A stretch of 64,000 nt of DNA from an uncultured Chloroflexia bacterium. Its GTDB lineage: Bacteria; Chloroflexota; Limnocylindria; QHBO01. Position 1 is the stretch's first letter. Each line of letters starts with the position of its first letter. A model generated the notes under the pieces. It saw only the letters and a program-made list of their open reading frames with translations. It did not search any database and was not told where the DNA came from. Location: positions 256,280 through 320,279 of the forward strand of contig CAWIXR010000002.1 in NCBI GenBank assembly GCA_963840145.1, given 5' to 3'. Position numbers and translations under genes: made by a program. This document shows positions 35,319-42,367 of the stretch, one piece after another.

Positions 35319-35355
35319 TCCGCGGCGCGGCGCGGGGCGCGGCGATAATCCCCGC

Positions 35356-36954
35356 ATGGCCGTCCTCCGCAGCTCCATCGATCCCGAGGCGCCCGAGACG
35401 CGCGCGAACACCGAGGCGATGCAACGCCTCGTCGAGGACCTGCGCGCGCGAACCGATGCGCTGAGCCGCAACGGCGCCGGCGGCGACGAGCGCTCGATCG
35501 CCCGCCACAGGGAGCGCGGCAAGCTGCCGGTCCGCGAGCGGATCGATCGGCTCATCGACCCGGGCTCGGCGTTCCTCGAGCTGAACGCGCTGGCGGCCAA
35601 CGGCCTCTACGACGACGAGGCGCCCGGGGCGGGGATCGTGACCGGCATCGGCCGCGTGGAGGGCATCGAGTGCGTGGTCGTCGCCAACGACGCGACGGTC
35701 AAGGGCGGCACGTACTACCCGATGACGGTGAAGAAGCACCTTCGCGCGCAGGAGATCGCGCTCGAGAACGGGCTGCCGTGCCTCTACCTGGTGGACAGCG
35801 GCGGCGCCTTCCTGCCGCTGCAGGACGAGGTCTTTCCCGATCGCGACCACTTCGGCCGCATCTTCTACAACCAGGCTCAGCTATCGGCGCGCAGGATCCC
35901 GCAGGTCGCGCTGGTGATGGGCTCCTGCACGGCCGGCGGCGCCTACGTCCCGGCGATGAGCGACGAGACGGTCATCGTCAAAGGCACCGGCACGATCTTC
36001 CTCGGCGGCCCGCCGCTCGTGAAGGCGGCCACCGGCGAGGAGGTGACGGCCGAGGAGCTCGGCGGCGCGGAGGTGCACACGACGCAATCGGGAGTGGCCG
36101 ATCATTTCGCCCTCGATGACGACCACGCGCTCGCGATCGGCCGCCAGATCGTGCGCAACCTGGCCCGGCGCAAGCCGGAGCCGCCGTGGGAAACCGGCGA
36201 GCCGTGCGAGCCATCGGTCCCGGCGGAAGGCCTGTACGGCGTGATTCCGGCCGACGCCCGCCAGTCGTACGACGTCCGCGAGGTCATCGCGCGCCTGGTG
36301 GACGGCTCCGACTTTCACGAGTTCAAGGCTCGCTATGGCGAGACGCTCGTCACCGGCTTCGCGCGGATCATGGGCTACCCGGTCGGGATCCTCGCCAACA
36401 ACGGGATCCTGTTCAGCCAGTCGGCGCTGAAGGGCGCCCACTTCGTCGAGCTCGCGTCCCAGCGCAAGGTTCCGCTCGTCTTCCTCCAGAACATCACCGG
36501 CTTCATGGTCGGGCGCGAGTACGAGGCCGGCGGCATCGCGCGCGACGGCGCCAAGCTCGTGACCGCGGTGAGCACGACGAACGTGCCGAAGTTCACCGTC
36601 ATCGTCGGCGGCAGCTTCGGCGCCGGGAACTACGGCATGGCCGGTCGCGCCTACGGCCCGCGCCAGCTGTGGATGTGGCCGAACGCGCGGATCAGCGTGA
36701 TGGGCGGAGCCCAGGCGGCGCGCGTCCTGTCGACGGTCCGCGGCGGATTCGAGACCGATGCGGACCGCGACGCCTTCGAGGCGCCGATCCTCGAGAAGTA
36801 CGAGCTCGAGGGCTCGCCGTATCACTCGACCGCGCGGCTGTGGGACGACGGCGTGATCGACCCGCTGGACACGCGCCGCGTCCTCGCCCTCGGCATCAGC
36901 GCGGCGCTCAACGCCCCGATCCCGGAGCCCGGCTTCAGCCTCTACCGGATGTAG
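35356..36954 (+). CDS. methylcrotonyl-CoA carboxylase beta subunit (carboxyltransferase)
   Basis: ORF trimmed to [11 protein letters not shown]. Acyl-CoA carboxylase carboxyltransferase fold: [23 protein letters not shown], biotin-side [11 protein letters not shown]. 532 aa. Confidence 0.88.
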
Positions 36955-36988: not shown

Positions 36989-37627
36989 ATGCACATCTGG
37001 AGCGAGCGTCCCCTCATGCGCGCCGGCGAGATCGCAGCCGACGTGGCGACGCTGGTGTGGCTCACGATCTGGATCGATCTCGGCGTCCGGCTGTACGGCC
37101 TCCTCGCCAACCTGGCCGAGTCCGGGCGGCTGGTGCGCGACGGTGGCACCGGCATCACCGACGCGGGCGAGACGATCGGATCGGCGATCGACGGCATACC
37201 GCTGGTCGGCGAGGGTGCCGCCGACGGCATCCGCGGCGCGCTGGCCGCCGCGGGTGAGCCGCTCATCGTCTTCGGCACCGATCTCGAGCGGCTGATCATC
37301 ATCATGGCCGCCGTGCTCGGCGCGCTGCTCGTTGCCGTCGCGATCGTCCCGTGGCTGAACCGATACCTGCCGTGGCGCATCGCCCGCTGGCGCCGGCTGA
37401 ACGCCGCCTCGCGGGTCATCCGCGGGTCGAAGCGCCGGACGGAGCCGATCGCGGACGAGACGCTTCAGTCACTCCTGGCGTCGCGCGCGGTCCATCGGCT
37501 CGAATACGACGAGCTCCTCGAGTTCAGCCCCGATCCGTTCGGCGACTGGGTCGCCGGCCGCCACGACCGGCTGGCGATGGCCGAGCTCGACCGCGTCGGC
37601 CTGCGTGGGTTGGCGCCGCCGCGCTAG
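36989..37627 (+). CDS. membrane protein, unknown function
   Basis: 212 aa with two hydrophobic helices. Inserted within the liu cluster. Confidence 0.55.
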   Translation: MHIWSERPLMRAGEIAADVATLVWLTIWIDLGVRLYGLLANLAESGRLVRDGGTGITDAGETIGSAIDGIPLVGEGAADGIRGALAAAGEPLIVFGTDLERLIIIMAAVLGALLVAVAIVPWLNRYLPWRIARWRRLNAASRVIRGSKRRTEPIADETLQSLLASRAVHRLEYDELLEFSPDPFGDWVAGRHDRLAMAELDRVGLRGLAPPR

Positions 37628-37640
37628 GCTCACGCCACCG

Positions 37641-38453
37641 ATGCAACCCGCAGATCGACCCGCCCCCGGCTCCCACGACCGGTCCGTCCCCTCCGGCTCG
37701 CTCGAGGAGAGCGCCGCCAACCTCTTCGACGCGATGCTCGCCGCCCGCGCGGCCGAGGAGCGCGGCGAGCGTGGCCCGCTCCACGCCTTCTTCCGCACGC
37801 TGATGAGCGGCACGCTCCTGCTGCCGGTGCCTCCCGACCATGGCGACGAGGCCAAGGCGGCGCTCGAGTCGGCCGTCAACGACGACGAGCAGGTCGAGAT
37901 CAGCGTGATGCTCGCCCGCGAGGCGGGCGGCGAGACGGTGGGGGTCGTCTTCGGCTCGTTCGCCGCGCTCGCCGCCTGGGCGCCGTCGGGCAGCGGCAAC
38001 CTTCCGCTGCCGGCGCGGATCGCGATCGCCAACCTGGCGGCCGCCGGCATGCCGGCGATCATGGACCCCGCCGGACCGGTGCCCTACCGCTTCGAGACCG
38101 ATGAGCTCGCCGCGCTCGCCGAGGGCCGCCTGCCCGGCAGCGACGAGCCGCTGTTCGAGGCCACCACCCGGTCCTCGATCCGGGTCCTCCTGCCCGGCAC
38201 CGATACCCGCGACCTCGAGCGCCGTCTCACCTCCGAGCTGGAGCCGACCTCGGTCGACGCCGCCTACCTCGTCGAGACCGACTCCGGCGGTGGTGACCGA
38301 CGGCTGATGCTCGGGCTGGTCGGCGAGCCCGGAGCGACGGCGACGGTCGACGTTCCGGACGGCACCGACGTCGTCTGGCTCGAGGAGCCGCTGCTGGCCC
38401 AGGTCCGCGCGGTCGCCGAGCCGTTCCACCGCCGCGGTCGGGCGGCTCGATGA
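37641..38453 (+). CDS. SseB family protein
   Basis: The N-terminal segment ...LHAFFRTLMSGTLLLPVP resembles the E. coli SseB N-terminus (PAFFRTLLESTVWVPG). Start taken at Met13 of ORF 37605..38453. Confidence 0.6.
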   Translation: MQPADRPAPGSHDRSVPSGSLEESAANLFDAMLAARAAEERGERGPLHAFFRTLMSGTLLLPVPPDHGDEAKAALESAVNDDEQVEISVMLAREAGGETVGVVFGSFAALAAWAPSGSGNLPLPARIAIANLAAAGMPAIMDPAGPVPYRFETDELAALAEGRLPGSDEPLFEATTRSSIRVLLPGTDTRDLERRLTSELEPTSVDAAYLVETDSGGGDRRLMLGLVGEPGATATVDVPDGTDVVWLEEPLLAQVRAVAEPFHRRGRAAR

Positions 38454-39241
38454 GCAGCCTGCGGGTCGAGCGTGACGGCCCGTTCGCGCAGGTGACGCTG
38501 GACCGCCCGGAGGTCCGCAACGCGTTCAACGCCGAGCTGATCGGTGAGCTGCGAACGACCTTCGAGGCGCTCTCGACGGAGGCCCCGGACGCGCTGCGCG
38601 GAGTCGTGTTGGCCGGGAGCGGGTCGGTCTTCTGCGCCGGCGCCGACGTCGACTGGATGCGCTCGGCCATCGGCCTCGGCGTCGCGGAGAACGAGCGGGA
38701 TGCTGCCGCGCTTCACGCGATGCTCGCGGCGGTGGACCGCTGCCCGGTCCCGGTGATCGCCCGCGTCCAGGGGGCCGCGCTCGGTGGCGGGATGGGCCTC
38801 TGCGCGGTCTCGGACGTCGTCGTCGCCGCGGCCGATGCGACCTTCGGCTTCACCGAGACGAAGCTCGGCATCATCCCGGCGGTCATCAGCCCGTTCGTGC
38901 TGGCAAAGATCGGCGAGTCGCACGCTCGCGCGCTGTTCGCCACCGGCCAGCGCTTCGACGCCGATCGAGCGATGCGGATCGGCCTCGTCCACGAGGTGGT
39001 GGCCGACGAGGTGGAACTCGACGCGCGCGTTGACCAGCTCGTCGGCGAGGTGCGCTCGGCCGGACCGACGGCGGCGCGGGCGGCCAAGGCCCTCGTCCGC
39101 GAGCTGCGTGCCCTGAGCCCCGACGAGGCACGGGCCCACACGATCCGGCACATCGCCCAGCAGCGGACGTCGGCCGAGGGCCAGGAGGGCCTCGGCGCCT
39201 TCCTCGAGAAGCGGCGCCCGAGCTGGACCGCAGAGGAATAG
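38450..39241 (+). CDS. enoyl-CoA hydratase/isomerase (probable methylglutaconyl-CoA hydratase)
   Basis: Crotonase fold: VLAGSGSVFCAGADV, catalytic GGGMGL, E in FTETKLG. Lies within the MCC cluster. Confidence 0.85.
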   Translation: MSSLRVERDGPFAQVTLDRPEVRNAFNAELIGELRTTFEALSTEAPDALRGVVLAGSGSVFCAGADVDWMRSAIGLGVAENERDAAALHAMLAAVDRCPVPVIARVQGAALGGGMGLCAVSDVVVAAADATFGFTETKLGIIPAVISPFVLAKIGESHARALFATGQRFDADRAMRIGLVHEVVADEVELDARVDQLVGEVRSAGPTAARAAKALVRELRALSPDEARAHTIRHIAQQRTSAEGQEGLGAFLEKRRPSWTAEE

Positions 39242-39443
39242 CCGCGGCCGATGGACGCCGGGCTCTGCGATCGGTGCCGCTACCAGCGGATCGTGGGGAA
39301 CGCGCGCGGCAGCACGTTCAGCCTGTGCGAACGCTCGGGCTCCGATCCCCGCTATCCGCGCTACCCACGACTCCCCGTCCTCGCCTGCCCTGGATTCCTC
39401 CCACGTCTGCCCGACCAGGACCGACCCCTGCGACAATCGCGAC

Positions 39444-41471
39444 ATGCCTGTTGACCTGACCCCGCGACAGGTCGCCGATGAGCTCGGCGTCACCGTCCGG
39501 ACCGTGCAGCGCTGGATCGCGGATGGCCGCCTCCCGGCGACACGCGTCGGATCCCGGGTCCGCGTGTCGCGTTCGTCGCTGTCTGCGGTCGCCGAGGCAG
39601 CTCCGAGCGCACCTGCCGCCGGGCCGATCCGGACGCTGCTGATCGCGAACCGCGGCGAGATCGCCGCGCGGGTCGCGCGGACGGCGCATCGGCTCGGGAT
39701 GAGGGCCGTCGGCATCCACGCGCCCGACGAGCGGCCACCAGCTGCCGCGGACGAGGCGCACGAGGTCTCCGGCTACCTCGACGGCGCCGCGATCATCGCG
39801 GTCGCCCAGCAGACCGGCGCCGATGCGATCCATCCCGGGTACGGATTCCTCGCCGAGAACCCCGACTTCGCCCGGGCCGTGGCGGCGGCCGGCCTGCGGT
39901 GGGTCGGTCCGCCGGCGGACGCGATCGCGGCCATGGGCGACAAGGCCGAGGCCCGTCGTCACGCGGCCGCGCACGGCGTCCCGACGGTCCCCGGCTACGA
40001 CGGCGCCGACCAGGGCGACGTGACGCTCGCGCGCGAGGCCGGACAGATCGGCTTCCCGCTGCTCGTCAAGCCGAGTGCGGGAGGCGGCGGCAAGGGGATG
40101 CGCGTGGTCCGCGCCCCTGCCGACCTCACGGAGGCGCTGGCCGGCGCACGCCGCGAGGCGGATCGGTCCTTCCGCGACGATCGGCTCATCCTCGAGCGCT
40201 ATCTCGAGCGTTCCCGCCACGTCGAGATCCAGGTGCTCTTCGACGCGGCCGGGCACGGCGTCCACCTCGGCGAGCGCGACTGCTCGGCGCAGCGGCGCAA
40301 CCAGAAGATCGTCGAGGAGTCGCCGGCGCCATCGGTCACGGCGGACCTTCGCGCGCGCATGGGCACCGCGGCCCTGGCGGTGGCGGCGGCCGCCGGCTAC
40401 GTCAGCGCCGGAACGGTCGAGATGCTGCTGACCGATGCGGGCGAGTTCTTCTTCCTCGAGATGAACACGCGGCTGCAAGTCGAGCACCCCGTCACCGAGG
40501 CCGTCACCGGCCGCGACCTCGTCGCCGATCAGCTCGCGATCGCCGCCGGCGCGACGCTCGCCGACCTCGGTCTCGAACGGCCGCCGGCGTTCCGCGGCCA
40601 CGCGATCGAGGCCCGCCTCTACGCCGAGGACCCCGAGTCCGGATTCCTCCCCGCCACCGGCCGCCTGGCGCTCCTGCGCTGGCCGTCCGGCGTGCGCATC
40701 GACACCGGCGTGGCGGAGGGCGACGTCGTCGGCGACCGATACGACCCGATGTTGGCCAAGCTGATCGCCCATGGCTCGACCCGCGCGCAGGCGCTCGACC
40801 TGCTGCGGGAGGCGCTGGAAGGCACGACGCTGCTGGGCGTGCGCACGAACCTGCGCTTCCTGCGCTGGCTGCTCGACCGGCCCGAGATGCGCGACGGCGA
40901 GGTCCGCACCGACACGATCGCGGAACTCGAGCTTCCCGGTCCGCCGGCCGTCGAGGACGCCCATTGGCAGGCGGCCGCGCGGCTCGCGGCCTCCGACGCG
41001 AGCGATCCCTGGGCCGATGGCTGGCGGCTGAACGCGTCGAGGGTTCGGCGCATGCGCAACGGCGACGACGAGCGCTCGGTGATCGTCACCGGCCCGGAGC
41101 CGGCGGCCACCGCGGTCCGCGACGGAGGCACGCTCCACGTCGACGTCGACGGGCAGAGCCTCGAGTTCAGCATCGCCGAGCCGCCGACCGTGGAGTCGGC
41201 GGTGGCGCACGCCGCGACGGCCGACGAGGGCTCATCGGTCCTGACCGCGCCGATGCCCGGGCGCGTGATCGCCGTCCGCGCCGCCACGGGCGAGTCGGTC
41301 CGTGCCGGCGCGCCGGTCGTCGTCATCGAGGCGATGAAGATGGAGCACGCGGTGGCGGCGCCGATCGACGGGACCGTCGAGCGCGTCGCGGTCCGCGAGG
41401 GCGACCAGGTCGAGCGCGGGGCAGTGGTGGCCGAGATCGTCGCGGGCGATCGGCATACTGAGGCCCAATGA
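39444..41471 (+). CDS. methylcrotonyl/acyl-CoA carboxylase alpha subunit (biotin carboxylase + BCCP) with N-terminal excisionase-type HTH fusion
   Basis: Residues 1-46 LTPRQVADELGVTVRTVQRWIADGRLPATRVGSRVRV form an HTH_17/excisionase-family DNA-binding motif, followed by an Ala/Pro linker. Then biotin carboxylase IRTLLIANRGEIA..., the ATP-grasp, and C-terminal biotinyl EAMKME. Confidence 0.85.
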   Translation: MPVDLTPRQVADELGVTVRTVQRWIADGRLPATRVGSRVRVSRSSLSAVAEAAPSAPAAGPIRTLLIANRGEIAARVARTAHRLGMRAVGIHAPDERPPAAADEAHEVSGYLDGAAIIAVAQQTGADAIHPGYGFLAENPDFARAVAAAGLRWVGPPADAIAAMGDKAEARRHAAAHGVPTVPGYDGADQGDVTLAREAGQIGFPLLVKPSAGGGGKGMRVVRAPADLTEALAGARREADRSFRDDRLILERYLERSRHVEIQVLFDAAGHGVHLGERDCSAQRRNQKIVEESPAPSVTADLRARMGTAALAVAAAAGYVSAGTVEMLLTDAGEFFFLEMNTRLQVEHPVTEAVTGRDLVADQLAIAAGATLADLGLERPPAFRGHAIEARLYAEDPESGFLPATGRLALLRWPSGVRIDTGVAEGDVVGDRYDPMLAKLIAHGSTRAQALDLLREALEGTTLLGVRTNLRFLRWLLDRPEMRDGEVRTDTIAELELPGPPAVEDAHWQAAARLAASDASDPWADGWRLNASRVRRMRNGDDERSVIVTGPEPAATAVRDGGTLHVDVDGQSLEFSIAEPPTVESAVAHAATADEGSSVLTAPMPGRVIAVRAATGESVRAGAPVVVIEAMKMEHAVAAPIDGTVERVAVREGDQVERGAVVAEIVAGDRHTEAQ

Positions 41472-42367
41472 CCGACGTCCGCATCTACGAGGTCGGGCCG
41501 CGCGACGGGCTCCAGAACGAGGCCGCGCCGATCCCGACCGAGGCGAAGCTGCGCTTCATCGACCTCCTGGCCGATGCGGGCCTGCGCGAGATCGAGGCCA
41601 CAAGCTTCGTCTCGCCGCGCGCGATCCCGCAGCTCGCCGATGCCGACGACCTGATGGCGCGCCTCGAGCGGCGGCCCGGCGTGCGCTATCCGGTGCTCGT
41701 GCCCAATGCGCGCGGGATGGAGCGCGCGGAGGCGGCCGGCGTCGACGCCGTCTGCGTCTTCACCGCGGCGTCCGAGGCGTTCACCGCGCACAACATCAAC
41801 ATGACGATCGCGGAGTCGATCGACGCGTTCCGGCCCGTCGTCGCCCGCGCGCGGGAGCTCGGCTGGTGGACCCGCGGCTACGTGAGCACCGCCTTTGGCT
41901 GCCCGTACCAGGGCGCGGTCGAAGAAGGGGCCGTCGTGGACGTCTCGCAACGGCTCCTCGATCTGGGGATCGACGAGCTGAGCATCGGCGACACGATCGG
42001 CGTTGCCGTCCCGGCCGACGTGCGTCGCGTGGTCGGCGCGCTGACCGCCGCGGGAATCGCGACCGAGCGCCTGGCGATGCACTTCCACGACACCCGCGGC
42101 ACGGCACTGGCGAACGTCTCCACCGCGCTGGAGCTGGGGATTCGCTGCTTCGATGCCTCGACCGGCGGCACGGGCGGCTGCCCGTACGCCCCGGGCGCTG
42201 CCGGCAACCTCGCCACCGAGGACCTCGTCTACCTGCTCGACCGCGAAGGGCTGTCGCACGGCGTGGACCTGGATCGGCTGCTCGTGGCGGCCCGCCACGT
42301 GAGCGATACGCTCGGCCGGCCACTGAGCACAAAGGTGGGCCAGGCCGGCGGCTGGCGTCTACCATAG
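41468..42367 (+). CDS. hydroxymethylglutaryl-CoA lyase
   Basis: HMGL-like TIM barrel with EVGPRDGLQNE, catalytic Cys in GGCPYAPGAAGN, and HFHDTRG. Confidence 0.9.
   Translation: MTDVRIYEVGPRDGLQNEAAPIPTEAKLRFIDLLADAGLREIEATSFVSPRAIPQLADADDLMARLERRPGVRYPVLVPNARGMERAEAAGVDAVCVFTAASEAFTAHNINMTIAESIDAFRPVVARARELGWWTRGYVSTAFGCPYQGAVEEGAVVDVSQRLLDLGIDELSIGDTIGVAVPADVRRVVGALTAAGIATERLAMHFHDTRGTALANVSTALELGIRCFDASTGGTGGCPYAPGAAGNLATEDLVYLLDREGLSHGVDLDRLLVAARHVSDTLGRPLSTKVGQAGGWRLP

What the first reader, a model, noticed from the sequence alone, without database searches (positions are those of the whole stretch)
39444..39600. Excisionase-type helix-turn-helix domain fused in-frame to the N-terminus of the MCC alpha (biotin carboxylase) subunit
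The first ~46 residues (LTPRQVADELGVTVRTVQRWIADGRLPATRVGSRVRV) match the HTH_17/excisionase DNA-binding family. An Ala/Pro linker follows, then a canonical biotin carboxylase start (IRTLLIANRGEIA). There is no alternative ATG/GTG between the HTH and the BC domain, so the BC domain cannot be expressed without the extension unless a CTG start is used. A DNA-binding domain on a catabolic carboxylase suggests a moonlighting autoregulator of the leucine/isovalerate (liu) cluster, or a gene-fusion artefact.
Basis: seen in the sequence. Interest (0 to 1): 0.55.

Follow-up and report, generated by a model that had tools for sequence, protein, structure and literature searches.

The report
DNA-binding domain fused to leucine-pathway carboxylase
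A biotin-dependent carboxylase of leucine breakdown really does carry a small DNA-binding domain on its front end, conserved across a whole soil-bacterial lineage, and its gene start sits on an almost invariant DNA motif, which suggests the enzyme switches off its own gene.

Summary
ORF 39444-41471 encodes an excisionase-type winged HTH (residues 5-52), a flexible Ala/Pro linker (53-61), and then a complete MCC-alpha-like biotin carboxylase with a BCCP domain.

It is not an assembly artefact. All 77 informative related loci keep the HTH and the carboxylase in one ORF. Nearly all of the 120 best full-length homologues carry PF12728. Synonymous sites drift freely through the HTH codons, so the domain is translated and under protein-level selection.

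Two new features emerged:
- **O1:** the 15 nt TGCGACAATCGCGAC (39429-39443) abut the ATG/GTG start in all 87 fused loci, while the sequence further upstream is unrelated. With the start codon it forms two 9-bp direct repeats (GCGACAATC | GCGACATGC) and has the geometry of an extended -10 promoter for a leaderless mRNA.
- **O2:** an inverted copy (39562-39579) lies inside the gene and is held at synonymous sites.

The closest solved relatives of the HTH (Pukovnik Xis, RacA, BldC; D29 Gp36 is a further homologue known from the literature) bind 9-bp or GC-rich repeats, and Gp36 acts as a repressor.

Best reading: an enzyme that represses its own gene. DNA binding is inferred, not shown. I found no paper describing this fusion.

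The parts
39444..41471 (+). Gene for the HTH-MCC-alpha fusion protein (675 aa)
   Evidence: ORF and translation; Pfam architecture; best solved relative is P. aeruginosa MCC alpha 3u9s, with query residues 61-570 aligned to chain residues 7-541.
39456..39599 (+). Excisionase/BldC-like winged HTH domain (residues 5-52): helix 7-14, recognition helix 18-27 (VRTVQRWI), beta-hairpin wing 32-42, helix 43-52
   Evidence: PF12728 E 5e-13; TIGR01764; AF2 model with pLDDT 79; Foldseek hits to Pukovnik Xis, RacA and BldC. R19, Q22, R23, W24, G28 and G36 are invariant.
39600..39626 (+). Flexible Ala/Pro linker (residues 53-61)
   Evidence: Variable in length and sequence among homologues; pLDDT about 54, below 50 at residues 51-55.
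39627..40922 (+). Biotin carboxylase core (BC_N, ATP-grasp, BC_C; residues 62-493)
   Evidence: Pfam PF00289, PF02786 and PF02785.
41241..41438 (+). Biotinyl (BCCP) domain, residues 600-665, with the EAMKMEH biotinylation motif (Lys632, nt 41337-41339)
   Evidence: PF00364; translation; motif invariant in 74 homologues.
39429..39447 (+). O1: invariant TGCGACAATCGCGAC abutting the start codon. It forms two 9-bp direct repeats, GCGACAATC (39430-39438) and GCGACATGC (39439-39447). It also reads as TGn + GACAAT + 6 nt + ATG, i.e. an extended -10 promoter for a leaderless mRNA.
   Evidence: Present in all 87 fused loci. Per-position identity is 0.92-1.00 at -15..-1, against 0.33-0.59 further upstream, in 78 unique sequences. 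Absent beside the BC start in 79 non-fused loci. It is the only exact copy in the window.
39562..39579 (-). O2: inverted copy inside the coding sequence (codons 40-46). The bottom strand reads GCGACGAACGCGACACGC, 15 of 18 identical to O1. Centre-to-centre distance from O1 is 136 bp.
   Evidence: Nucleotide-level constraint: Ser codons are TCG in 65/65, 64/66 and 67/69 sequences; Arg43 is CGT in 47/75, although CGT is rare elsewhere. GTCGC-N4-GTCGC occurs 4 times in 64 kb, and 2 of those are O1 and O2. O2 is missing in 9 loci that still keep O1.
41468..42367 (+). HMG-CoA lyase gene; it overlaps the stop of the fusion gene (ATGA) and is probably co-transcribed
   Evidence: PF00682; NCBIfam NF004283 scores 400.7 bits against a cutoff of 246; synteny in L081 and L082.
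38450..39241 (+). Enoyl-CoA hydratase gene (probable methylglutaconyl-CoA hydratase), the conserved upstream neighbour
   Evidence: PF00378; synteny.
35344..36954 (+). Carboxyltransferase (MCC beta) gene, true start 35356, with its own GATAAT-N6-ATG element (35344-35349)
   Evidence: PF01039; N-terminus MAVLRSS conserved in 15 loci; only [CG]ATAAT is conserved upstream, with spacing varying from 6 to 10 nt.

Best explanation
The gene encodes a genuine two-part protein, conserved across a lineage. An N-terminal excisionase/BldC-type winged helix-turn-helix is tethered by a flexible linker of about 10 residues to a complete 3-methylcrotonyl-CoA carboxylase alpha subunit (biotin carboxylase + BCCP).

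The most likely role of the HTH is autorepression.
1. The alpha gene has its own minimal promoter (TGn-GACAAT, then 6 nt, then the ATG/GTG), which would give a leaderless mRNA.
2. That promoter and start are overlaid by two 9-bp direct repeats, GCGACAATC|GCGAC(A/G)TGn (O1).
3. HTH domains of the enzyme would bind these repeats head-to-tail, as BldC, Xis and D29 Gp36 do on their repeats, and so exclude RNA polymerase.
4. A second, inverted copy 136 bp downstream inside the coding sequence (O2) would act as an auxiliary operator. Because the enzyme is oligomeric, it could be bridged to O1 by a DNA loop.

The signal that frees the DNA is unknown. It could be assembly with the beta subunit, substrate or ATP, or biotinylation state. 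Feedback that balances alpha against the separately transcribed beta subunit is the simplest idea.

Shown here: the fusion, its conservation, protein-level selection on the HTH, the fold, the two DNA elements, their nucleotide-level conservation, and their co-occurrence with the HTH.

Inferred: DNA binding, promoter activity, leaderless start, looping, and the physiological signal.
For: **Fusion is real and selected**
- 77 of 77 informative loci are in-frame.
- Nearly all of the 120 best full-length homologues carry PF12728.
- Synonymous sites vary freely through the HTH codons while the residues are invariant.

**Domain is a DNA-binding-competent fold**
- AF2 gives helix-turn-helix, a beta-hairpin wing and a third helix.
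- Foldseek and profile hits: Pukovnik Xis (46% identity, E 4e-9), RacA and BldC.
- The two base-contacting residues of RacA (K15, R19; PMC4914108) align with invariant R19 and R23 within a shared TVQRW recognition helix.

**Operator-like DNA**
- O1 is 92-100% identical at every position across 78 unique sequences, and it ends exactly at the start codon. The flanks are at background identity and the upstream neighbour gene differs between loci.
- In the same loci the beta-subunit promoter-like element keeps only ATAAT and drifts in spacing. O1 is therefore more constrained than a plain promoter.
- O1 is present in the fused forms about 50% identical in the N-terminal 185 residues (L001, L163-165). 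It is absent from 79 non-fused BC loci and from the non-fused paralogue L289.
- O2 is held at synonymous sites and is 15/18 identical to O1 in inverted orientation.

**Geometry has precedent**
- BldC protomers each bind a 9-bp direct repeat head-to-tail (PMC5859096).
- The Xis-like D29 Gp36 binds GC-rich GCGGC direct repeats and represses transcription (PMC12266134).

**No Shine-Dalgarno sequence**
- There is none before the start, whereas other genes in the window have one.
Against: - No binding experiment exists, and no transcription start site data.
- The promoter scan found no sigma-70-type site, because there is no -35 element.
- O1 and O2 are complementary, so the same data fit an RNA long-range helix that hides the start codon.
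- No second copy of the motif occurs at other genes of the cluster, so there is no regulon-type support.
- O2 is dispensable in 9 loci.
- The HTH scores well below the BldC-family cutoff (28 bits against 77), so the head-to-tail binding mode is an analogy.
- An identical 19-mer lies upstream of an unrelated phage antitoxin gene. If that is not chance, it favours a generic expression signal.
Confidence: 0.5

Rival explanations
1. O1 is only an expression signal: a self-contained extended -10 promoter with a leaderless start, in which every base matters because there is no -35 element. The HTH does something else, for example tethering the carboxylase to the nucleoid as RacA anchors DNA, binding elsewhere in the genome, or mediating protein contacts.
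For: - Canonical register: TG at -15/-14, A at -11, T at -7, and 6 nt to the start.
- Similar -10-N6-7-ATG arrangements occur at other ORF starts in the window, and at the beta-subunit gene.
- The same 19-mer lies in an intergenic region before an unrelated phage gene.
- RacA-type domains also bind DNA non-specifically (PMC4914108).
Against: - The beta-subunit element in the same genomes conserves only the hexamer and lets spacing drift, whereas all 15 positions and the spacing of O1 are fixed.
- A plain promoter does not explain the inverted copy O2 held at synonymous sites.
- It also does not explain why the motif co-occurs with the HTH in every fused locus examined and beside none of the non-fused BC starts.
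- The phage match is within the number expected by chance.
Confidence: 0.22
2. O1 and O2 act as RNA. In a read-through transcript from the upstream genes they pair (5 + 10 bp around a 3x3 internal loop), enclosing the HTH-coding segment and burying the start codon. This would control translation of the alpha subunit. The HTH would not be involved.
For: - The helix is in the MFE and centroid structures of 39415-39600.
- RNAalifold picks it as the only conserved long-range structure in 33 sequences.
- Duplex energy is -27.5 kcal/mol, against -17.5 for shuffled 5' segments.
- The A/G start-codon polymorphism keeps a pair with U.
Against: - There are 0 compensatory changes. About seven single-sided changes break pairs without compensation.
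- Overall folding z-score is only -0.98.
- Nine loci have lost O2 and have no alternative partner (energies at background), yet keep O1 invariant.
- The AAT in the predicted internal loop is invariant, which pairing does not explain.
- If the mRNA is leaderless, O1 is not transcribed from this promoter.
Confidence: 0.15
3. The fusion is an assembly or annotation artefact, or stop-loss of a separate small HTH gene, and the carboxylase is really made without the extension.
For: - Some database entries for relatives are split or truncated (P0041, P0042, P0044, P0071, P0169).
- An in-frame GTG exists at codon 41.
Against: - The split entries are contig-edge or long-read frameshift calls. L290 still carries the motif and the HTH in the DNA.
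- 77 of 77 independent loci are in-frame, with linkers of variable length.
- The HTH shows protein-level purifying selection.
- Codon 41 is not conserved as a start.
Confidence: 0.02
4. The HTH is a true excisionase (recombination directionality factor). O1 and O2 are recombination sites of a mobile or invertible element.
For: - The closest solved relative is a phage Xis.
- O1 and O2 are inverted repeats flanking a 122-bp segment.
- In L083 a peptidase gene sits between two copies of O1 plus the first 11 codons.
Against: - No integrase or recombinase is present in the conserved neighbourhood.
- Synteny is stable, and all 87 loci show the same orientation.
- The inverted repeats are imperfect (12/15).
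- The L083 junction is explained by microhomology (GTGGCC) with the peptidase's own start.
Confidence: 0.03

Closest known systems
BirA (biotin protein ligase / bio operon repressor), PutA, archaeal RbkR: bifunctional enzyme-repressors ('trigger enzymes')
   Same: A small N-terminal DNA-binding domain is covalently joined to a metabolic enzyme, with a candidate operator overlapping a promoter in the enzyme's own pathway. RbkR and trigger enzymes are discussed in PMC5397151 and PMC6978683. BirA and PutA are from general knowledge.
   Different: - The enzyme is different (a biotin-dependent carboxylase subunit that works in a large alpha/beta holoenzyme).
- The HTH class is different (excisionase/MerR-like wHTH, not the BirA wHTH or the PutA ribbon-helix-helix).
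- The site is made of direct repeats, not a palindrome.
- No binding, corepressor or switch has been shown here.
BldC, mycobacteriophage Pukovnik Xis, D29 Gp36, RacA: stand-alone MerR-like / excisionase wHTH proteins
   Same: - Same fold and similar sequence (Xis 46% identity; RacA shares TVQRW).
- No coiled-coil dimerisation domain.
- Their known targets are 9-bp direct repeats (BldC), GC-rich GCGGC direct repeats with repression (Gp36), or GC-rich TGACGC half-sites (RacA). Sources: PMC5859096, PMC12266134, PMC4914108.
   Different: - Those are proteins of 55-70 aa, or carry a coiled-coil tail. Here the domain is the N-terminus of a 675-aa enzyme.
- The BldC-family model is not met (28 bits against 77).
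- No integrase or att context exists that would make it an excisionase.
E. coli acetyl-CoA carboxylase carboxyltransferase (AccA/AccD) autoregulation
   Same: It is a subunit of a biotin-dependent carboxylase that binds nucleic acid to control synthesis of its own subunits, whose genes are not co-transcribed (PMC2831308).
   Different: That case uses the zinc finger of the beta subunit, binds mRNA, and represses translation. Here the alpha (BC-BCCP) subunit carries an added HTH, and the likely target is DNA.
TnrA/GlnR with glutamine synthetase
   Same: A MerR-like wHTH on a flexible linker whose DNA binding is governed by a metabolic enzyme (summarised in PMC4914108).
   Different: There the enzyme and regulator are separate proteins that interact. 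Here they are one polypeptide.
LiuR (MerR-family) regulators of liu clusters in Proteobacteria (from general knowledge; not tested here)
   Same: A MerR-superfamily HTH dedicated to the leucine/isovalerate catabolic genes.
   Different: LiuR is a separate, full-length MerR dimer with a coiled coil that binds a palindrome.

Membership tests
HTH_17 / excisionase-family DNA-binding domain (PF12728, TIGR01764) | Profile match above the curated cutoffs | tested here: met
   PF12728: 49.5 bits against 27. TIGR01764: 47.9 bits against 28.8.
HTH_17 / excisionase-family DNA-binding domain (PF12728, TIGR01764) | Winged-helix fold: helix, recognition helix, beta-hairpin wing, C-terminal helix | tested here: met
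   AF2 gives H7-14, H18-27, E32-35, E38-42, H43-52, pLDDT 79. Foldseek to 4j2n Xis gives TM 0.74-0.81, rmsd 1.9 Å.
HTH_17 / excisionase-family DNA-binding domain (PF12728, TIGR01764) | Sequence-specific DNA binding | not testable with these tools
   Only a candidate site (O1/O2) and conserved basic residues R19 and R23, aligned with RacA K15 and R19 (PMC4914108).
BldC family (NF033787) | Family model score at or above cutoff | tested here: not met
   28.2 bits against a cutoff of 77. It resembles BldC in fold but is not a member.
Recombination directionality factor (functional excisionase) | Linked integrase/recombinase and att sites on a mobile element | tested here: not met
   No recombinase domains in the window neighbourhood or in syntenic loci. 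Locus orientation is fixed in 87 loci.
Classical MerR-family regulator | Coiled-coil dimerisation helix and effector domain after the wHTH | tested here: not met
   The wHTH is followed by a disordered linker and the BC domain. PF00376 scores below its cutoff (22.8 against 28.2).
3-methylcrotonyl-CoA carboxylase alpha subunit | BC_N + ATP-grasp + BC_C + BT region + biotinyl domain with the AMKM motif | tested here: met
   Pfam domains; EAMKMEH at residues 629-635; PF21139 BT_MCC_alpha recorded for several close homologues.
3-methylcrotonyl-CoA carboxylase alpha subunit | Closest characterised relatives are MCC rather than PCC/ACC; genomic context of leucine catabolism | tested here: met
   The top PDB hit is 3u9s MCC alpha (E 3e-151), and five of the seven best are MCC. 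The cluster holds a carboxyltransferase, an enoyl-CoA hydratase and an HMG-CoA lyase.
3-methylcrotonyl-CoA carboxylase alpha subunit | Substrate specificity for 3-methylcrotonyl-CoA | not testable with these tools
   No equivalog model reached its cutoff. The assignment rests on similarity and context.
Bifunctional enzyme-repressors (BirA / PutA / RbkR type) | DNA-binding domain covalently fused to an active enzyme | tested here: met
   The catalytic and biotinylation motifs are intact and invariant.
Bifunctional enzyme-repressors (BirA / PutA / RbkR type) | Operator at a promoter of its own pathway, bound by the enzyme | tested here: inconclusive
   A candidate operator O1/O2 co-occurs with the HTH in every fused locus examined. 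Binding and promoter activity are not shown.
Bifunctional enzyme-repressors (BirA / PutA / RbkR type) | Metabolite- or state-dependent switch between the enzyme and repressor roles | not testable with these tools
   No data.

The most novel reading that the evidence does not exclude
A biotin-dependent carboxylase subunit is itself a transcription factor. Unassembled or idle MCC alpha would bind, through its BldC/Xis-like HTH, two 9-bp GCGAC repeats that coincide with its own leaderless promoter and start codon. It would loop to a second operator embedded in the HTH-coding sequence. This would set alpha-subunit synthesis according to holoenzyme assembly or leucine-catabolic flux. It would be the first carboxylase of this class with a dedicated DNA-binding domain, and an example of an operator maintained inside the codons of the domain that reads it.
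Probability: 0.4. Interest if true: 0.75.

Novelty: new variant of a known kind. Interest (0 to 1): 0.62.

Why it matters
Enzymes that double as regulators of their own pathway (BirA, PutA, RbkR) are few, and each has been informative about how cells sense flux directly.

If this case holds, it adds three things:
- a new enzyme class, the biotin-dependent acyl-CoA carboxylases;
- a new domain class, the excisionase/BldC-type wHTH;
- an unusual layout, in which the operator coincides with a leaderless promoter and start codon and has a second copy written into the coding sequence.

It is also directly testable. The protein, an 18-bp site and a mutant design are all defined.

Practically, public annotation names many of these enzymes 'excisionase family DNA-binding protein'. 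That hides a core leucine-catabolic enzyme in an abundant soil lineage (Limnocylindria-type Chloroflexota).

Tried and rejected
**Searches that led nowhere**
- The genome-contig scan with an HTH+BC alignment was swamped by the LIANRGE pattern. It gave one fused locus (L001) and 79 ordinary BC loci, which I reused as negative controls.
- The representative-library search with the HTH alone was dominated by tandem HTH_17 array proteins and by fragments of the fusion. It showed no separate small-gene ancestor.
- The cluster-member look-up returned no names.
- An exact look-up of the window protein found nothing.
- Rfam gave no match.
- The sigma-70/terminator scan found no sites.
- Literature searches for the fusion found nothing relevant.

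**Readings I rejected**
- Upstream in-frame translation of CDNRD as the reason for O1 conservation. In-frame stops occur just upstream in relatives, and there are no synonymous changes.
- GTG41 as a conserved internal start.
- RNA pairing as the reason for O1 conservation.
- 'Non-fused close orthologues'. The apparent ones are truncated gene calls or long-read frameshifts. The one true non-fused protein (P0048/L289) is a different paralogue that follows a BCCP-like gene and lacks the motif.

**Unresolved**
- The phage match to the 18-mer could not be distinguished from chance once the 14-mer background was measured.
Full report
**1. The observation**

The ORF 39444-41471 (+) encodes 675 residues.
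- Pfam places HTH_17 (PF12728) at residues 5-52 (E 5.2e-13, 49.5 bits against a cutoff of 27).
- It places Biotin_carb_N from residue 62, then the ATP-grasp domain, Biotin_carb_C and a biotinyl domain at 600-665.
- NCBIfam's 'excisionase family' domain model TIGR01764 is also above its cutoff.
- Between the two parts lies PSAPAAGPI. The biotinylation motif EAMKMEH is intact.

One statement is not exact: in-frame GTG codons exist at codon 21 and at codon 41 (39564-39566). No start codon occurs from codon 42 to the carboxylase core. Codon 41 is Leu in roughly a quarter of relatives, so it is not a conserved alternative start.

**2. Is the fusion real?**

A search with the full protein returned 120 best homologues of 70-85% identity (each a 90% cluster). 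Nearly all are 665-700 residues long and carry PF12728. Sources name them 'excisionase family DNA-binding protein', 'biotin carboxylase N-terminal domain-containing protein' or '3-methylcrotonyl-CoA carboxylase alpha subunit'. The organism labels are mostly Candidatus Limnocylindria or Chloroflexota.

A search with the first 185 residues found fused forms down to about 50% identity, with a different HTH subtype (alignment).

I fetched 80 metagenome loci through the HTH peptide alone and checked them.
- In every one of the 77 loci with enough downstream sequence, the RTVQRW helix and the ANRGE motif of the carboxylase lie in one ORF, 41-59 residues apart.
- The other six end at the contig edge.

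Apparent HTH-less relatives in the first search are truncated gene calls or long-read frameshifts. The one true non-fused protein (P0048/L289) is a different paralogue.

Codon analysis of 76 unique sequences shows free synonymous variation through the HTH, with invariant residues (for example Thr: ACG 40, ACC 32). That is the signature of a translated domain under purifying selection.

The start codon is the first possible one in the ORF. Met1 (or Val from a GTG start) is conserved: 60 ATG and 22 GTG.

An assembly artefact or recent stop-loss is excluded.

**3. Context**

The gene order is:
- carboxyltransferase (true start 35356)
- two unknown proteins and an SseB-like protein
- enoyl-CoA hydratase (38450-39241)
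- the fusion gene
- HMG-CoA lyase (41468-42367, overlapping the fusion's stop)
- a nucleoside hydrolase
- an ECF transporter

This order is syntenic in long contigs of relatives. The fused forms about 50% identical in the N-terminal 185 residues also follow a hydratase gene and lie near a carboxyltransferase.

The best solved relative of the whole protein is P. aeruginosa MCC alpha (3u9s, E 3e-151). Five of the seven best solved relatives are MCC alpha subunits. The alignment starts at query residue 61 and chain residue 7, so the first 60 residues are an addition that no solved carboxylase has.

The assignment as MCC alpha is by similarity and context, not by an equivalog model.

**4. The domain**

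AlphaFold2 on an alignment of 30 HTH sequences gives helix 7-14, helix 18-27, a beta-hairpin at 32-42 and helix 43-52, with pLDDT 79.

The full-length model has pLDDT 87.7. It shows the same domain joined to the carboxylase by a low-confidence linker (residues 51-60, pLDDT about 54). The domain is therefore an independently folded, flexibly tethered module.

The nearest solved structures, by Foldseek and by a sequence profile, are:
- mycobacteriophage Pukovnik Xis (46% identity, TM 0.74-0.81; profile E 4e-9);
- RacA (profile E 3e-6, sharing the recognition-helix sequence TVQRW);
- BldC (profile E 5e-5);
- RdfS (found by Foldseek only, E 0.03).

In RacA the base contacts come from Lys15 and Arg19 (PMC4914108). 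These align with Arg19 and Arg23 here, both invariant in every fused sequence.

The domain is not a BldC-family member (28 bits against 77). It is not a classical MerR, because it has no coiled coil. It has no recombinase partner that would make it an excisionase.

**5. An invariant DNA element at the start codon (O1)**

I aligned the 70 nt upstream of the start in the window and 86 related loci. The 15 nt TGCGACAATCGCGAC (window 39429-39443) directly abut the ATG or GTG in essentially all of them.

Per-position identity in 78 unique sequences:

| Positions | Identity |
|---|---|
| -45 to -17 | 0.33-0.59 |
| -15 | 0.92 |
| -14 to -7 | 1.00 |
| -6 | 0.94 |
| -5 | 0.97 |
| -4 to -1 | 1.00 |

The gene upstream differs between loci.
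- Usually it is the hydratase stop codon, about 25-60 nt upstream of the start codon.
- In a subclade it is an S66 peptidase.
- In the window's sublineage it is a small Cys4 ORF.

The element therefore goes with the fusion gene, not with its neighbour. The fused forms about 50% identical in the N-terminal 185 residues keep GCGACAAT(C/T)..., 1-4 nt farther from the ATG.

The core octamer is not found next to the carboxylase start in 79 non-fused loci, nor in L289. The window has no other copy above chance.

The conservation is at the nucleotide level. No synonymous-type changes occur in any frame, and in-frame stops lie just upstream in relatives.

Two readings fit, and they are compatible.

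(a) Promoter. TG at -15/-14, GACAAT with A at -11 and T at -7, then 6 nt to the A/G of the start codon. This is an extended -10 promoter that would produce a leaderless mRNA.
- There is no Shine-Dalgarno sequence, whereas the ECF genes in the window have GGAGG.
- The beta-subunit gene has GATAAT-N6-ATG, and several other ORFs have TANNNT-N6-7-ATG.

(b) Operator. With the start codon the element is two 9-bp direct repeats, GCGACAATC | GCGAC(A/G)TGn.

The beta-subunit element is a useful internal control. In 15 of the same loci only [CG]ATAAT is conserved there, and its distance to the ATG drifts from 6 to 10 nt. A plain promoter in these genomes is far less constrained than O1.

**6. A second, inverted copy inside the gene (O2)**

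Within the otherwise freely drifting HTH codons, codons 41-45 (V S R S S) are frozen at the nucleotide level:
- Ser is TCG in 65/65, 64/66 and 67/69 sequences. At a neighbouring variable position that is Ser in only 23 of the 76 sequences, all Ser codon types occur.
- Arg43 is CGT in 47/75 sequences, although CGT is used 2-8 times at other Arg codons.

The conserved block GTCGCG-YTC-GTCGC (39566-39579) is the inverted counterpart of O1.
- The bottom strand of 39562-39579 reads GCGACGAACGCGACACGC.
- O1 reads GCGACAATCGCGACATGC, so 15 of 18 positions are identical.
- GTCGC-N4-GTCGC occurs four times in the 64-kb window, and two of those are O1 and O2, 136 bp apart centre to centre.

Nine loci have a different C-terminal wing sequence (RIPR...) and lack O2, but keep O1 unchanged.

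**7. DNA or RNA?**

O1 and O2 are complementary, so they could form an RNA helix (5 + 10 bp around a 3x3 loop) that buries the start codon.

In favour:
- The helix is in the MFE and centroid folds.
- It is the only conserved long-range structure RNAalifold finds.
- Duplex energy is -27.5 kcal/mol, against -17.5 for shuffled controls.

Against:
- There are no compensatory changes, and single-sided changes often break pairs.
- The overall z-score is -0.98.
- The AAT of the would-be internal loop is invariant.
- The nine loci without O2 have no alternative partner (energies at background), yet keep O1 invariant.

O1 therefore has a function of its own. The RNA helix remains a possible second layer.

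**8. Mechanism proposed**

Close relatives of this HTH give direct precedent.
- BldC has no dimerisation domain and binds 9-bp direct repeats head-to-tail. [quoted passage not shown]
- D29 Gp36 is a homologue of Pukovnik Xis. It binds GC-rich direct repeats containing GCGGC and represses transcription (PMC12266134).
- RacA reads GC-rich TGACGC half-sites (PMC4914108).

The proposal rests on three points: two 9-bp GCGAC repeats covering the -10 region, transcription start and start codon of the gene that encodes the domain; invariance of both the motif and the recognition helix; and co-occurrence of the two in every locus examined.

The most economical reading is autorepression by promoter occlusion. 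O2 would be an auxiliary operator reached by looping, because the enzyme is oligomeric. MCC holoenzymes are alpha6beta6, as in 3u9s; I take this from general knowledge and did not test it here.

The beta gene lies 4 kb upstream and has its own promoter-like element. Feedback that matches alpha to beta is therefore a plausible purpose, analogous to E. coli carboxyltransferase controlling its unlinked accA and accD messages (PMC2831308).

Binding, promoter activity, the leaderless start, looping and the signal are all inferred.

**9. Novelty**

I found no paper describing an HTH-carboxylase fusion. The proteins are in public databases under automatic names.

Conceptually the protein belongs with enzyme-repressors such as BirA, PutA and RbkR (PMC5397151, PMC6978683). 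It differs in enzyme class and in HTH class, and its operator is built of direct repeats that coincide with a leaderless start, with a second copy inside the coding sequence.

I rate it a new variant of a known kind, with moderate to high interest. The fusion itself is certain. The regulatory mechanism has about even odds.

**10. Caveats**

- Taxonomy rests on names attached to homologues.
- An identical 19-mer precedes a phage HTH_66-DUF433/PIN toxin-antitoxin pair. The 14-mer has more than 120 background matches in that collection, and only 1 of the 120 retrieved matches is followed by ATG or GTG. The phage match is therefore within chance expectation.

Noticed in passing
window 39251-39454 (+); L083 937-1146; L085 upstream of 1120: A 67-aa ORF with four conserved cysteines (CxxC...C...C; MDAGLCDRCRYQRIVGNARGSTFSLCERSGSDPRYPRYPRLPVLACPGF...) fills the 200-nt gap between the hydratase and the fusion gene. 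It is found only in the window's closest relatives. It is conserved with amino-acid substitutions, has no Pfam or NCBIfam match, and its 3' end reads through O1.
   Followed up: partly
L083 1115-1168 and 2215-2268: An S66 (LD-carboxypeptidase-like) gene sits between two copies of O1 plus the first 11 codons (MPDELTPRQVA). The junction falls at GTGGCC, which matches the peptidase's own GTG-GCx start in other loci. This points to microhomology-mediated rearrangement, which leaves the peptidase behind a copy of the O1/start signal.
   Followed up: partly
window 35344-35358; 15 related loci: The carboxyltransferase (MCC beta) gene starts at 35356, not at the longer ORF start 35209. It is preceded by GATAAT-N6-ATG. 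Relatives keep [CG]ATAAT at 6-10 nt from the ATG, which suggests a leaderless or near-leaderless transcript. Several other ORFs in the window show TANNNT-N6-7-ATG (for example 4017, 22249, 25824, 47344, 54195).
   Followed up: partly
L166 5100-5117, L167 9040-9061, L168 144-161 (IMG/VR contigs): The exact sequence CTGCGACAATCGCGACATG lies in an intergenic region of a phage-like contig (tape measure, small terminase). It is directly upstream of an HTH_66-DUF433 antitoxin-like gene followed by a PIN_10 gene. The count is within chance expectation given the 14-mer background, so its meaning is open.
   Followed up: partly
proteins P0241 (479 aa) and P0243 (623 aa): The best-scoring relatives of the HTH in the representative library include proteins made of eight tandem HTH_17/MerR-type domains. 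These are covalent arrays that would suit long runs of direct repeats.
   Followed up: partly
L082 10054-11922: In one relative the HMG-CoA lyase and the inosine-uridine nucleoside hydrolase are called as a single 622-aa product. In the window they are separate genes 7 nt apart (42367/42375). This may be a real fusion or a long-read frameshift.
   Followed up: no
window 36989-38453; L081 5417-7187; L082 3499-6138: A conserved set of uncharacterised genes (a product of about 83 aa, a product of 204-213 aa with no family match, and an SseB-like protein) is kept between the carboxyltransferase and the hydratase genes in this lineage. That is unusual content for a liu cluster.
   Followed up: no
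window codon 39 of the fusion gene (39558-39560) and relatives L086, L098, L124, L133, L147: Residue 39 is Met (ATG) in several relatives. Gene callers sometimes start there (P0042), giving spurious HTH-less annotations.
   Followed up: yes
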